Shown here: positions 5,862-30,503 of the stretch, one piece after another | How the letters are laid out: every line of letters begins with the position of its first letter | Numbering within the stretch: the first letter of the stretch is position 1 | DNA from: Candidatus Harpocratesius repetitus | GTDB taxonomy: Archaea > Asgardarchaeota > Lokiarchaeia > Sigyniarchaeales > Promethearchaeaceae | Assembly: GCA_021498095.1 (NCBI GenBank) | Contig: JAIZWK010000001.1 | Span: 1,830,001 to 1,862,000 of the forward strand | Direction of reading: 5' to 3' | DNA length: 32,000 bases | Notes under the pieces: generated by a model | The model's input: only the letters and a program-made list of their open reading frames with translations | Database searches by the model: none | Told to the model about the DNA's origin: nothing | Position numbers and translations under genes: made by a program

Positions 5862-7790
5862 ATGGAGATAAAAATGGGACCGGTTCAAGATGAAATTGAA
5901 GAAGAAATTGTGGAACAGAGTATTTTTGGACGTAATCAATTTAAAGAATTGATAGAATGGCTTCAAGCACGAAAAATGTTCCAAATACGATGTGAAATCA
6001 CAGGTATGTATAACTTAACCGAGCAATTTTTCAAAGGTAAAGGTGTTATTCTGAAAAGATATGATGGCCGGATTTTCCCAAATACTGTTTATATTCTGCT
6101 TAATGAAGGAGATATTGGAAAAGATGAGATTTTAATTGGTAGGCGAATAATAGAAGTTAGTAATCAGCAATTAATTCAGCCATTTCAAACTTTCGGAATG
6201 AATCAACTTGAAATTTCAGAATTATCAGAAGCTATTGCTCCTAATGTATTTGTTCTTGAAAATTCATTTAAAAAAGATTTGCAGCACCAAACCTTTTTTC
6301 GTAATAGAGAATATGATAGAAGTATTGATTTTTTGACTTCTTTAATTAAAAAATATGAAGTTAATGCTTATATCGAAGGGATACTTGTTTCAAAAACAAA
6401 ACAGATTCCTTGTATTATTACAGGAATGGTCAAATCAGTTGTTGGAAAAGATATTTATATTTCATTATGGGATGCTTTTGATCCTACTGATCCATTGAAT
6501 GATGAAACTAAAGAATGGCTAACCAGGGACTGGATAATCCAAATAGGTCAAATGGGTATAAACAAGGTTCATCCGAAATATTTACTGTTTGAAACAGGAG
6601 AAGAACTTTCATTAACAAAAAAGGTTTTAATTACAAAAAATTTATCCGTTTCATTTTCTGGAAGAAAAATTATTGAAGATGTATCTTTTACCTTGGAAAA
6701 GGGAGAGATTATGGGAATAATCGGAGAATCTGGAGCAGGTAAATCTACTACAGTTAAAGCAATACTCGGGGAAGTTGATTATTCTGGAGAAATACTTGTT
6801 TTTGGCATTGATGCACATGATACTAAAGCGATTGCTCCATTTATTGGATATGTCCCACAAGATCTTTCACGTATGTATCAAAATTTCAACTGTTTGGAGA
6901 ATATTGTTGCCTTTGGAAGACAATATGGGGTTCCAGATGAACTTTTAATTCAACGAGGAAAAAAAATTCTTACAGATTTGGGTATTGGACATGTCGCTAA
7001 TCAACCGGTTTCTTCGCTTTCAGGGGGTCAGAAAAGACGCGCTTCAATTGCAATCGCTATGGTTCATAATCCATATCTCATATTTTTAGATGAGCCCACT
7101 TCTGGTCTAGATCCATTAGCGAGATATGAGTTATGGAATTATTTGGATTTGATAAATAAAGAATATGGGATTTCTTTAGTAGTCATTTCTCATTATTTAG
7201 ATGAAATTGAATATTGCGATAAAGCTTGCATTTTCTTACGCGGGATCGGGTTTTATGACTTTAATTCTCCTCAAGGATTAAAAAAGGCTCTACCTGGAAA
7301 AGGATTGGCATTAGAAGTTACACTAGAAACTGTTAACATAGAAGCAGTAGAAGTACTAAAGCAAATTCCTGGGGTCGTTTTTACAATTCAACGTGGAGAA
7401 CGAATACGATTATTAAGTGACATTCCTTCCAAAATATTAGGTGATCGTGTCATTGAATCATTACAACGTGCGAAAATTCCCCTTCACAGTATTACATATA
7501 AAGTTTCAGTAGATATGGTTGATTATTTTACCTATGTGAGTGTAATTCATCAGCAAGAAGGGGGAGGTGACTTAGGTCATCTTTCAAAACTGGAAATACT
7601 TGAAATAACAAAAGGTGTAAATAATACCAGTGAGCCTGGAATTGTAACTTTATCAGATAACCAAATTTTAATGGTTGATGTTGACATGGATAAGATTAAT
7701 GTTCCTGTAGAAAAAATTGATGAAACGCGCGCCAGCTTGAAAGAGCAAAAGGATAAACTTAAAAAAAAAAATCTGAAACATAAAAAGTGA
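5862..7790 (+). CDS. ABC-2 type transporter ATP-binding subunit (A2) with a ~250-aa N-terminal extension
   Basis: Walker A GESGAGKST, VPQ, LSGGQKRR, IFLDEPT, ISHY. Has an extra N-terminal beta-rich region and a charged C-terminal tail. Confidence 0.95.
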   Translation: MEIKMGPVQDEIEEEIVEQSIFGRNQFKELIEWLQARKMFQIRCEITGMYNLTEQFFKGKGVILKRYDGRIFPNTVYILLNEGDIGKDEILIGRRIIEVSNQQLIQPFQTFGMNQLEISELSEAIAPNVFVLENSFKKDLQHQTFFRNREYDRSIDFLTSLIKKYEVNAYIEGILVSKTKQIPCIITGMVKSVVGKDIYISLWDAFDPTDPLNDETKEWLTRDWIIQIGQMGINKVHPKYLLFETGEELSLTKKVLITKNLSVSFSGRKIIEDVSFTLEKGEIMGIIGESGAGKSTTVKAILGEVDYSGEILVFGIDAHDTKAIAPFIGYVPQDLSRMYQNFNCLENIVAFGRQYGVPDELLIQRGKKILTDLGIGHVANQPVSSLSGGQKRRASIAIAMVHNPYLIFLDEPTSGLDPLARYELWNYLDLINKEYGISLVVISHYLDEIEYCDKACIFLRGIGFYDFNSPQGLKKALPGKGLALEVTLETVNIEAVEVLKQIPGVVFTIQRGERIRLLSDIPSKILGDRVIESLQRAKIPLHSITYKVSVDMVDYFTYVSVIHQQEGGGDLGHLSKLEILEITKGVNNTSEPGIVTLSDNQILMVDVDMDKINVPVEKIDETRASLKEQKDKLKKKNLKHKK

Positions 7791-28490: not shown

Positions 28491-29264
28491 ATGCGAAAAT
28501 TTTTAGTTTTTGATTTAGGCGAGACATTGCTAAACTTTAATCAAACTGGAAAATGGCATGAGAGATTGAAAGAAGAAATTATTCCAGAAATGATCTCTCT
28601 ACTTAAACGAGAAATTAAAAGAATTGAAGGAAATCCAATATTTGCATATCAAAATAAGAAAAGTTTAGACCTCTTTAAATCCAGATCTCAAAAAGTCCAT
28701 TCGATTATTTATGAAGCAATAGCGTTAAAAGAAGAAAAAAATCGGAGTATGATTTCCCGAATCAAGAACTATTTACTCAAATTGTCTTTATCCCCTGAAC
28801 CACGAATAATTAATTCTCAACTTGATGTCTTTCAACGAAATTTAGACAAATATATTTCTATTTATCGAGATGTTCATAAAACTTTAAACCTGCTGCAAAA
28901 GCAGAAATATATTTTGGGATTATGGTCGAATACTCCATGGCAATCTCCTGGAAGAATTACTCTTTCATTAATGCAAAAATATCATCTTACTCAATATTTT
29001 GATTATATATTTTTTTCTGGTGATTATGAAGTTCAAAAGCCTGATCCTAAATCATTAGAGATTGTTCTTCATGAATCAAAGCAATCAAAGGATGATATGG
29101 TATATATCGGCAATTCTGACATTGATATCATTACTGGAGTAAAGTTTGGTATTCCCACTGTGTGGATTAATCGTGATGGAGGTGTATTAACTCCTCAATG
29201 TCCACGTCCAACTTTAGAAATATCCCACTTGGACGACTTACCTGAAAGGATTAAAAATATTTAA
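28491..29264 (+). CDS. HAD-superfamily hydrolase (subfamily IA)
   Basis: FDLGETL (motif I), WSNT (II), KPDP (III), IGNSDID (IV). Confidence 0.88.
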   Translation: MRKFLVFDLGETLLNFNQTGKWHERLKEEIIPEMISLLKREIKRIEGNPIFAYQNKKSLDLFKSRSQKVHSIIYEAIALKEEKNRSMISRIKNYLLKLSLSPEPRIINSQLDVFQRNLDKYISIYRDVHKTLNLLQKQKYILGLWSNTPWQSPGRITLSLMQKYHLTQYFDYIFFSGDYEVQKPDPKSLEIVLHESKQSKDDMVYIGNSDIDIITGVKFGIPTVWINRDGGVLTPQCPRPTLEISHLDDLPERIKNI

Positions 29265-29303
29265 CTATTCAATATTATACTCAAAAAAAAAGAATAATTA
29301 ATT

Positions 29304-29615
29304 GAGGATATTTTATCTTTTTTAATTTAAACGCTTTTTTGAATATCATTTATATATGTCCGACTTAAATCTGAAATATCGCAATTCTTTTTTTGTCGAA
29401 CTCGATTTTTTCAAAGAATTTGTTAAAAATTTACCATCCTGCTTATAAATTCTTCAATCTGATGTCTATTTTATTATAATTCTTGATTTACATATCTTGA
29501 ATTTGGCACCTTGGTAAAATCGACAAAAAATAAGGAAGGATATTTTAGATTTGAGTCGGAAGAATTAATATGATGAAATGAAAAACTTCGAATCTTTAAA
29601 ATTTAAAATACCCTC
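29304..29615. mobile_element. MITE-like non-autonomous element, copy 1 (312 bp)
   Basis: Ends GAGGATATTTTA...TAAAATACCCTC (11/12 inverted match), flanked by AATT (29300-29303) and AATT (29616-29619). Imperfect inverted arms extend 96 bp. No ORF. Confidence 0.8.
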
Positions 29616-29619
29616 AATT

Positions 29620-29931
29620 GAGGATGTTTTATCTTTTTTAATTTAAACGCTTTTTTGAATATCATTCATATATTTCCGACTTAATTCTGAAATATCGCAA
29701 TTCTTTTTTTGTCGAACTTGGTTTTTTCAAAGAATTTGTTAAAAATTCACCATCCTGTTTATAAATTCTTCAATCTGAAGTCGTTTTTATTAGAATTATT
29801 GATTTTCATACCTTGAATTTGGTACATCGATAAAATCGACAAAAAATAAGGGAGGATATTTTAGATTTGAGTCGGGAGAATTAAGATGATGAAATGAGAA
29901 ACTTCGAATCTTTGAAATTTAAAATACCCTC
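29620..29931. mobile_element. MITE-like non-autonomous element, copy 2 (312 bp), direct tandem with copy 1
   Basis: Same length, no indels, about 24 substitutions versus copy 1 (~92% identity, counted by eye). Flanked by AATT (29616-29619) and AATT (29932-29935). Confidence 0.8.
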
Positions 29932-30092
29932 AATTATTGATGTAATTATGAATTTTTTCTCCATTTAGGATAATTAGAGTCAAAGATAAAAGATTTAGAT
30001 TTCATACTTTTTTTATATTCTCTTATTAATTTTTAATTATCATTTTGAACCCACAACCTTTTCTATTCCCCTATCTTGCACTACACATTATC

Positions 30093-30503
30093 ATGGGAAA
30101 TTCAAACGATTTTGATGAATTATGGGAAGACATCCCCGGTTATGCATTTATTGCCTTAGGAAGGCGTGGACGGGAGCAGATCTCGCTATATCAATGTTTT
30201 ACTCCAGGATGCAATGAAAAAAAGCTTGATATGTTGCATATTGTTGATGTTGAAGAGAAAAACATTCAAACAAATTCTGATGGAAGTAAAGTATCTTCTA
30301 TTGCTTACAAAATTAAATGTGATACTTGTGGTTCTATTTTTAGGCTTGTATTTGAACAGTATCTTTCCCCTAATCCGGATAAGATAGATGAAAGTATTGA
30401 AGCGGAAGAAGATAACTCGTTAGTTTTATTCGAAAATGTTTATGCAACTGATGAATCAGGACAACATAATTATGGCCGGATTGGATTTGTACAATCAAAA
30501 TAA
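30093..30503 (+). CDS. Hypothetical putative Zn-binding protein
   Basis: CFTPGC and CDTC Cys pairs with acidic, beta-rich composition. Probable ATG at 30093 (the track starts at 30045). Confidence 0.7.
   Translation: MGNSNDFDELWEDIPGYAFIALGRRGREQISLYQCFTPGCNEKKLDMLHIVDVEEKNIQTNSDGSKVSSIAYKIKCDTCGSIFRLVFEQYLSPNPDKIDESIEAEEDNSLVLFENVYATDESGQHNYGRIGFVQSK

What the first reader, a model, noticed from the sequence alone, without database searches (positions are those of the whole stretch)
29300..29935. Tandem pair of 312-bp MITE-like elements sharing AATT target duplications (AATT-[E1]-AATT-[E2]-AATT)
Seen: exact 316-bp periodicity, terminal inverted repeats GAGG(A/G)TATTTTA, three AATT copies at the outer edges and the junction, and no coding capacity. 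The copies differ at about 24 of 312 positions with no indels, so this is not a fresh local duplication. Known: MITEs are mobilised in trans by IS transposases and duplicate a short target. Inference: two diverged family members inserted sequentially at the same regenerated AATT site, implying strong target preference or array-building behaviour. This is probably an undescribed Asgard element family whose transposase lies elsewhere.
Basis: partly seen in the sequence, partly recalled or inferred. Interest (0 to 1): 0.72.

Follow-up and report, generated by a model that had tools for sequence, protein, structure and literature searches.

The report
Two MITEs inserted side by side
Two copies of a 312-bp gene-less jumping element landed one after the other in the same four-letter target (AATT) between two genes of a Loki-type Asgard archaeon; this is a real but ordinary by-product of a target-specific transposon family that the scan had already met elsewhere in this genome.

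Summary
There are two head-to-tail 312-bp units (window 29304-29615 and 29620-29931), 316-bp period, 24 differences, no indels, 12-nt terminal inverted repeats, and AATT at both edges and the junction.

The unit is a genuine MITE:
- The 4.36-Mb genome has 47 full-length and 7 partial copies.
- 39 of 44 copies have perfect 4-bp target duplications, 27 of them AATT (extended target T|AATT|A).
- Paralogous empty sites carry a single AATT.
- Four copies at different loci are identical.

The two window copies are not sisters. E2 belongs to a well-supported 7-member subfamily that excludes E1, and an AU test rejects joining them (p = 0.006). The pair is therefore two independent insertions into one regenerated AATT, not a local duplication.

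It is the only tandem among the copies and is compatible with chance plus target preference, so nothing supports array-building.

The likely mobiliser is an unclassified DDE_Tnp_1 insertion-sequence family of about 1.84 kb. Its ends start GAG(G/T)G and its target duplication is AATT. It is present in this genome and in 29 other genomes of the order.

The scan had already found this 312-bp family on other DNA of this genome (e1-5445084, e1-5449141). No paper found describes MITEs in Asgard archaea.

The parts
29300..29303 (.). AATT, left copy of the target-site duplication (context T|AATT)
   Evidence: Sequence; family-wide 4-bp duplication statistics
29304..29615 (+). E1, a 312-bp MITE copy of the main subfamily. 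It has 8 differences from the family consensus. Its nearest copy is at genome 889956 (96.5% identity).
29304..29315 (+). E1 left terminal inverted repeat (12 nt, starts GAGGAT)
29604..29615 (-). E1 right terminal inverted repeat (reads GAGGGT... on the minus strand)
29616..29619 (.). Shared AATT. It is both the right duplication of E1 and the left duplication of E2, and is the site re-used by the second insertion.
   Evidence: It is the only direct tail-to-head junction of this family in the genome.
29620..29931 (+). E2, a 312-bp MITE copy of a distinct 7-member subfamily. It has 18 differences from the family consensus. Its nearest copy is at genome 2623206 (96.8% identity).
   Evidence: support 100/95 for the subfamily; AU test p = 0.006 against an E1+E2 clade
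29932..29935 (.). AATT, right copy of the target-site duplication (context AATT|A)
28491..29264 (+). Upstream flanking gene, a HAD_2 hydrolase. It is not part of the element.
30045..30503 (+). Downstream flanking ORF (152 aa, no Pfam family, conserved in the congener G002). The pair lies about 110-160 bp upstream of it.

Best explanation
The region is two separate insertions of a non-autonomous DNA transposon (a 312-bp MITE) into the same 4-bp target.

Proposed sequence of events:
1. The original site read T-AATT-A between the HAD gene and the next ORF.
2. A DDE transposase supplied in trans made 4-nt staggered cuts at AATT and joined one MITE copy. Gap repair left AATT on both sides.
3. Later a copy from another subfamily used one of those regenerated AATTs in the same way. 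This gave AATT-E1-AATT-E2-AATT.

What is shown: the family, its mobility, its target preference, and the independent origin of the two copies.

What is inferred: the stagger-and-repair chemistry, which follows from general knowledge of DDE transposases, and the identity of the transposase. The best candidate is an unclassified family of about 1.84 kb with a DDE_Tnp_1 transposase, ends starting GAG(G/T)G, and AATT duplications.

This genome holds three paralogues of that family:
- IS-X (genome 3573257-3575115) has perfect ends and an AATT duplication, but its gene is broken.
- A second paralogue (3318221-3319288, 468 aa) has an intact gene but no recognisable ends.
- A third has an end that resembles the 289-bp MITE families instead.

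Which copy arrived first cannot be told. The tandem needs no special array-forming mechanism. Target specificity, plus the harmlessness of landing beside an existing element, is enough.
For: Family and mobility:
- 47 full-length and 7 partial copies in the genome.
- 39 of 44 copies have perfect 4-bp duplications: 27 AATT, the rest ATAT, ATTT, ACTT, TTAT, ATAA, TTAC, ATGA, AAAT.
- The base before the target is T in 30/39 sites and the base after it is A in 22/39.
- Paralogous empty sites exist. The copy at 2654311 interrupts a repeat whose paralogue at 2510841-2511140 is continuous with a single AATT. The copies at 479332 and 2359645 sit at one AATT inside 289-bp MITEs, about 35 other copies of which are uninterrupted there.
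- Four copies with different flanks are identical.

Independent origin of E1 and E2:
- They are 92.3% identical, and E2 ranks 41st of 43 among E1's relatives.
- None of E1's 8 or E2's 18 departures from the consensus is shared with the partner, while six E2 variants are shared by 6-7 other copies.
- E2 lies in a 7-member clade with support 100/95 that excludes E1. The AU test rejects E1+E2 (lnL difference 39, p = 0.006).

Transposase link:
- IS-X is 1859 bp with about 50-nt inverted ends that start GAGGGT, and it sits in a T|AATT|A duplication.
- It encodes a DDE_Tnp_1 protein.
- Its right end ranks 11th of 10,981 GAGG-starting genomic 55-mers for similarity to the MITE left end.
- The relative in G041 has 22-nt ends whose first 11 nt equal the MITE right end. 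The relative in G019 has similar ends and an AATT duplication.
- Five copies in the closed genome G010 have duplications AATT x3, ACTT and AGCT.
Against: - The E1/E2 junction is supported only by the deposited assembly. Short-read contigs stop at the element edges.
- No longer element in this genome carries the MITE's own ends, and the MITE shares no internal sequence with IS-X.
- Compared with intact relatives of about 495 aa, the IS-X gene has a frameshift in an A10 run and a TAG at a conserved Trp. It is therefore probably not the present source of transposase.
- The intact paralogue has no detectable ends, so its target and end preference are unknown.
- MITE ends resemble the ends of relatives in other genomes more than those of IS-X.
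- Under the loosest null model (any AATT), an exact tandem among 47 copies has only about a 1% probability. Some extra local preference is therefore not excluded.
Confidence: 0.85

Rival explanations
1. End-targeted insertion or array-building. The transposase prefers an AATT that abuts a resident terminal repeat, so tandems are a programmed outcome. Alternatively, the abutted ends with a 4-bp spacer form a reactive junction, as in tandem IS dimers.
For: - An exact tandem has only a 1-6% chance under loose AATT models.
- Two other copies occupy one identical AATT inside 289-bp MITEs, which hints at hot spots.
Against: - There is only one tandem among about 47 copies, and no head-to-head or tail-to-tail pairs.
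- The probability rises to about 50% if the effective target pool is non-coding TAATTA.
- The two nested copies lie in a composite that aligns as one 625-bp block at 94.6% identity, so they may be a single event that was later copied.
- The two units are old and diverged, not a fresh dimer.
Confidence: 0.07
2. Assembly artefact. Only one copy exists at this locus, and the second was created by mis-joining reads from other copies.
For: - No short-read contig bridges the junction. Contigs of the source sample end at 29327 and start at 29909.
- The genome is a scaffolded metagenome assembly with one 10-N gap.
Against: - Assemblers normally collapse repeats rather than expand them.
- The two units differ at 24 sites in subfamily-specific patterns and are joined by an exact AATT. 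That requires reads that truly span an end-AATT-end junction, and such a junction occurs nowhere else in the genome.
- The genome's features (two 16S genes, a two-contig scaffold, repeat richness, vent origin) fit an assembly reported as built from Nanopore reads with Canu, whose reads far exceed 632 bp. This identification is an inference, not a tool result.
Confidence: 0.04
3. Local tandem duplication of one inserted copy, by slippage or unequal exchange on the flanking AATT, followed by divergence or by gene conversion from other copies.
For: Perfect register, the same orientation and no indels between the units are what a duplication would give at first.
Against: - E1 and E2 share no derived variants.
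- E2 carries the diagnostic states of a separate 7-member subfamily.
- An E1+E2 clade is rejected (p = 0.006).
- Each unit is closer to distant copies (96.5% and 96.8%) than to its neighbour (92.3%).
Confidence: 0.03

Closest known systems
Prokaryotic and archaeal MITEs, e.g. Sulfolobus solfataricus SM1-SM4 (25-44 copies each; review PMC10969869)
   Same: Small non-coding element with terminal inverted repeats, a fixed-length target duplication and tens of copies per genome. It lies mostly outside genes (2 of 44 copies have both flanks inside long ORFs). It is mobilised in trans by an IS transposase and its body folds as a hairpin.
   Different: The host is a Lokiarchaeial Asgard archaeon, a group for which the papers searched list no MITEs. 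The target is the palindrome AATT. No parent IS with the same ends is present in the genome.
Plant MITE multimers (Tourist dimers, adjacent or nested Tourist/Stowaway; Jiang and Wessler 2001 as summarised in PMC5172404)
   Same: Adjacent or nested MITEs that arose from independent insertion events, explained by target preference and by MITEs being harmless landing sites. This genome has both an adjacent pair (the window) and nested copies.
   Different: Those are eukaryotic PIF/Harbinger or Tc1/mariner partners with TAA or TA targets, and in rice more than 10% of elements are multimers. Here there is one tandem among about 47 copies.
IS4/IS5-superfamily insertion sequences (Pfam DDE_Tnp_1); nearest NCBIfam models IS1634, IS1182, IS5
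   Same: The DDE_Tnp_1 catalytic domain scores above the Pfam cut-off. The element has one long transposase gene and inverted ends. By my recollection of ISfinder, the 4-bp duplication and ends beginning GA/GG recall the IS5 group. That is a lead, not a test.
   Different: All NCBIfam IS-family models score far below their cut-offs (best IS1634, 41 bits against 100). At about 1.84 kb with a transposase of about 495 aa, it is larger than IS5-group elements. AATT is not a target I know for any named family.
Tandem IS dimers with reactive abutted ends (IS30, IS21, IS911 type; from general knowledge)
   Same: Head-to-tail arrangement with two ends separated by a spacer equal to the duplication length.
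   Different: Those dimers consist of identical copies formed in one step by families that use circle or dimer intermediates. Here the units are 7.7% diverged and phylogenetically separate.

Membership tests
MITE (non-autonomous DDE transposon derivative) | Short (under about 600 bp) and without coding capacity | tested here: met
   312 bp. The longest internal ORFs are 30-35 aa and are not shared between copies. No Rfam match near its gathering score.
MITE (non-autonomous DDE transposon derivative) | Terminal inverted repeats | tested here: met
   12-nt ends are 11/12 complementary in nearly all copies. The whole body folds as an imperfect hairpin, z = -3.5.
MITE (non-autonomous DDE transposon derivative) | Target-site duplication of fixed length that differs between copies | tested here: met
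   39 of 44 copies have perfect 4-bp duplications of ten different sequences, 27 of them AATT.
MITE (non-autonomous DDE transposon derivative) | Multiple dispersed copies and evidence of movement (empty sites) | tested here: met
   47 full and 7 partial copies. Paralogous empty sites have a single AATT. Four copies at distinct loci are identical. A congener carries a copy at a locus where this genome has none.
MITE (non-autonomous DDE transposon derivative) | An autonomous element with matching ends and the same duplication | tested here: inconclusive
   IS-X shares the 4-bp AATT duplication and the GAGGGT start, but little more, and its gene is broken. Relatives in other genomes have closer ends and AATT duplications. 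No element with the MITE's exact ends was found.
IS4/IS5 superfamily (DDE_Tnp_1) for the candidate transposase | Pfam PF01609 domain above the gathering score | tested here: met
   33-37 bits against a cut-off of 23 for three members.
Named IS families IS1634, IS1182, IS5, IS4, IS1380, IS982 | NCBIfam equivalog model above its curated cut-off | tested here: not met
   Best is IS1634 at 35-42 bits against 100. All others are lower. ISfinder itself was not available.
Tandem IS dimer / active-junction intermediate | Two identical or sister copies formed in one event | tested here: not met
   24 differences, different subfamilies, AU p = 0.006.

The most novel reading that the evidence does not exclude
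The transposase of this Asgard IS family preferentially re-uses the AATT that it regenerates beside its own terminal repeat. MITEs would then tend to build head-to-tail arrays whose abutted ends, 4 bp apart, could themselves be recognised as a substrate. The window pair would be the first visible step of such an array.
Probability: 0.07. Interest if true: 0.5.

Novelty: new member of a known kind. Interest (0 to 1): 0.27.

Why it matters
The pair is a clean natural record of how a target-specific DDE transposon regenerates its own target. It helps define an AATT-targeting IS/MITE system that appears undescribed in Asgard archaea, a group whose mobile elements are studied because of their position next to eukaryotes.

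Practically, these about 50 copies and their sister families explain part of the repeat load of this genome. They break short-read assemblies at predictable points.

The near-identity of the MITE between two species whose genes are only 72-78% identical points to recent exchange of mobile DNA among co-occurring Lokiarchaeia.

None of this changes any larger picture. MITEs, their target preferences and MITE multimers are well known.

Tried and rejected
- **Rfam scan of the region:** only sub-threshold snoRNA and miRNA noise, so a structured-RNA reading was dropped.
- **Longer elements with the MITE's ends:** searched within 8 kb, with and without a matching duplication; none found. A loose 14-mer scan was uninformative in this AT-rich genome.
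- **PF13359 (Harbinger-type DDE):** no match in the genome.
- **Ends of the intact paralogue at 3318221-3319288 and of the third paralogue:** no convincing inverted repeats.
- **Orthologous empty site:** the congener G002 has the syntenic genes at 67-81% identity but a different ORF and a masked stretch in the gap, so no base-level empty site could be read. G001 gave no match.
- **Sequencing runs:** no RNA holder is listed. Short-read contigs do not bridge the junction, so they neither confirm nor refute the tandem.
- **Public-collection scans:** the tail-AATT-head junction and a 30-nt left end gave 0 matches in metagenome contigs and genome contigs. These were exact matches only, and near-identical genomes are left out.
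- **The search for related loci with the IS-X protein:** returned nothing. Relatives came from the genome search instead.
- **PDB sequence search of the transposase:** nothing relevant.
- **Order of the two insertions:** terminal branches (0.022 for E1, 0.010 for E2) hint that E1 is older, but this is too weak to use.

Full report
**Observation.** Tandem Repeats Finder gives period 316, 2.0 copies, 92% matches, no indels and score 1104. The repeat finder gives the same pair. Reading the bases places AATT at 29300, 29616 and 29932, E1 at 29304-29615 and E2 at 29620-29931. Each unit starts GAGGAT and ends ACCCTC, so its 12-nt ends are 11/12 complementary. The two units differ at exactly 24 of 312 positions without gaps. 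Internal ORFs are 30-35 aa and are not shared between units. Nothing in Rfam approaches its threshold. The flanks are a HAD_2 hydrolase gene (28491-29264) and a 152-aa ORF of no Pfam family (30045-30503), followed by a second HAD gene.

**What the unit is.** The window lies at 1,830,001-1,862,000 of a 4,361,485-bp single-scaffold genome with 31% G+C. My BLAST census finds 47 copies of at least 280 bp and 7 partial ones, on both strands. Of 44 end-to-end copies, 39 are flanked by a perfect 4-bp direct repeat. Of those, 27 are AATT and the rest are ATAT, ATTT, ACTT, TTAT, ATAA, TTAC, ATGA or AAAT. The base before the target is T in 30 of 39 sites and the base after it is A in 22 of 39, so the preferred site is the palindrome T-AATT-A. 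Only 2 of 44 copies have both flanks inside long ORFs.

Movement is shown directly by paralogous empty sites. The copy at genome 2654311 splits a repeat whose paralogue at 2510841-2511140 runs straight through with one AATT. The copies at 479332 and 2359645 sit at one AATT inside members of a 289-bp MITE family, about 35 other members of which are uninterrupted there. Four copies with unrelated flanks are identical, so the family was active recently. As single-stranded DNA the element folds into a long imperfect hairpin (z = -3.5), which is usual for MITEs. All defining features of a MITE are therefore met, except a parent element with the same ends.

**Origin of the tandem.** E1 and E2 are 92.3% identical. 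E1 is up to 96.5% identical to distant copies, and E2 is 96.8% identical to the copy at 2623206. E2 ranks 41st of 43 among E1's relatives. None of E1's 8 or E2's 18 departures from the family consensus is shared with its neighbour, while six E2 variants are shared by 6-7 other copies. In a maximum-likelihood tree, E2 lies in a 7-member clade (ultrafast bootstrap 100, SH-aLRT 95) that excludes E1. The AU test rejects the best tree that joins them (lnL difference 39, p = 0.006). A local duplication followed by drift is therefore rejected. The pair is two insertions of members of different subfamilies, the second into one of the AATTs regenerated by the first. The reconstructed empty site, T-AATT-A, matches the family's preferred target. 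The order of arrival cannot be settled.

**Is array-building needed?** This is the only tail-to-head junction of the family in the genome, and there are no head-to-head or tail-to-tail pairs. I modelled 47 sequential insertions. The chance of at least one exact tandem is 1.2% if all 86,717 AATTs are equally available. It is 5.5% for the 18,150 AATTs outside long ORFs. It is about 49% if the pool is as narrow as the 1,530 non-coding TAATTA sites. Landing beside an existing element is also guaranteed to be harmless, which favours retention. One tandem is thus mildly surprising at most, and I see no evidence for a dedicated array-forming behaviour, though a weak preference for end-adjacent AATTs is not excluded. 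Adjacent and nested MITE multimers made by independent insertions are well known in plants (PMC5172404).

**The transposase.** No longer element carries the MITE's own ends. Among 38 DDE_Tnp_1 matches in the genome, one single-copy element stands out. I call it IS-X (genome 3573257-3575115, 1859 bp). It has inverted ends of about 50 nt at 95% identity that begin GAGGGT, and it sits in a T|AATT|A duplication. Its 387-aa ORF has the Pfam DDE_Tnp_1 domain. Every NCBIfam IS-family model scores far below its cut-off, the best being IS1634 at 35-42 bits against 100. The IS-X right end ranks 11th of 10,981 GAGG-starting genomic 55-mers for similarity to the MITE left end. This is suggestive, not decisive.

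The family-level evidence is stronger. Relatives of the protein occur in 30 of the 154 genomes of the order that were searched, this genome included.
- The relative in G041 is 1840 bp with 22-nt perfect ends whose first 11 nt equal the MITE right end.
- The relative in G019 is 1842 bp with similar ends and an AATT duplication.
- A closed 6.04-Mb genome of the same family (G010) has five copies of about 1.84 kb with duplications AATT (three times), ACTT and AGCT.

The MITE therefore shares the terminal GAGG motif, the 4-bp duplication and the AATT preference with this IS family.

Within this genome the picture is untidy. Compared with intact relatives of about 495 aa, the IS-X gene has a frameshift in an A10 run and a TAG at a conserved Trp. 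A 42%-identical paralogue (3318221-3319288, 468 aa) is intact and groups with the G019 element at 54% identity, but it has no detectable ends. A third paralogue (33% identity) has an end that resembles the 289-bp MITEs instead. Which protein moved the four identical copies is therefore open. My estimate is about 55% that it is one of the two AATT-type paralogues.

**Reliability of the tandem.** Contigs from short-read runs of what is probably the source sample enter E1 by 24 nt and E2 by 23 nt and then stop. None bridges the junction, so I could not verify it independently. An artefact is unlikely. A spurious join would need reads spanning end-AATT-end, and that junction exists nowhere else in the genome. 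The genome has two 16S rRNA genes and a single 10-N gap. It is repeat-rich, belongs to the same family as a 4.3-Mb closed relative, and matches hydrothermal-vent runs. This fits Ca. Harpocratesius repetitus FW102, which was assembled from Nanopore reads with Canu (PMC8813620).

**Relatives and spread.** Among 40 relatives, only one congener (G002) has the element. Its full copy has an AATT duplication and lies between genes that are 72-78% identical to genome 738642-741083, where this genome has no MITE. Yet the MITE itself is 92-95% identical to copies here. A neutrally evolving element inherited vertically should be more diverged than the genes around it, so the family probably spread between these lineages recently. 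At the window's own locus, G002 has another small ORF between the conserved genes, and the spacer is not alignable, so no orthologous empty site could be read.

**Known or new.**
- The paper describing Ca. H. repetitus does not mention MITEs or insertion sequences by name.
- A 2026 archaeal IS survey and a 2024 prokaryotic MITE review list no Asgard MITEs.
- This scan had already reported the same 312-bp family from two other windows of this genome (e1-5445084, e1-5449141). My independent census agrees with those reports.

What this window adds is the tandem and the proof that it is a double hit.

**Verdict.** It is a new member of a known kind and biologically ordinary, so I score interest at 0.27.

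Noticed in passing
Genome G000:C1:3573257-3575115 (L031:501-2359), outside the window: Single-copy 1859-bp IS with inverted ends of about 50 nt and an AATT duplication. Compared with intact relatives of about 495 aa, its transposase gene has a frameshift in an A10 run and a TAG at a conserved Trp. The element looks recently inserted, yet its gene looks dead. The A10 frameshift could also be a homopolymer sequencing error.
   Followed up: partly
Genome G000:C1:479212-479831 and 2359457-2360078: A 312-bp MITE is nested at the same AATT, in the same orientation, inside a 289-bp MITE at two loci. The two composites align as one 625-bp block at 94.6% identity. Either the composite moved as a unit on the outer ends, or that AATT is a hot spot.
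   Followed up: partly
G002:C13:43858-44169 (L044) versus G000:C1:738642-741083: The MITE copy in a congeneric genome is 92-95% identical to copies here, while the genes flanking it are only 72-78% identical to their orthologues, and the orthologous spacer here has no MITE. This suggests recent transfer of the element between species.
   Followed up: partly
G002:C14 (L048:837-1500) versus window 29265-30044: At the syntenic locus, the congener has an extra ORF of about 170 codons (partly masked by N) between the HAD gene and the conserved downstream ORF. This genome has only the two MITEs and short spacers there.
   Followed up: no
Genome-wide, e.g. G000:C1:398097-398677, 6116-6708, 360260-360866: A further repeat family of about 580-620 bp with roughly 20 copies. 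One copy directly abuts a 312-bp MITE at 398678. There are also many IS families of 1.45-1.6 kb and 2.8-4 kb. Ends and partners of the 580-bp family were not examined.
   Followed up: no
Genome G000:C1:3318221-3319288 (L032:1419-2825, minus strand): An intact 468-aa transposase paralogue (42% identical to IS-X, 54% to the AATT-duplicating element of G019) with no recognisable inverted ends. It is not found in the two congeners. It could be a stranded source of transposase for the MITEs.
   Followed up: partly
Genome G000:C1:72064, 303526, 557062, 1816698: Four 312-bp MITE copies are identical to each other but have different flanks and duplications (AATT/AATA, TTAT, AATT, ATGA). This marks the most recent burst of the family.
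   Followed up: yes
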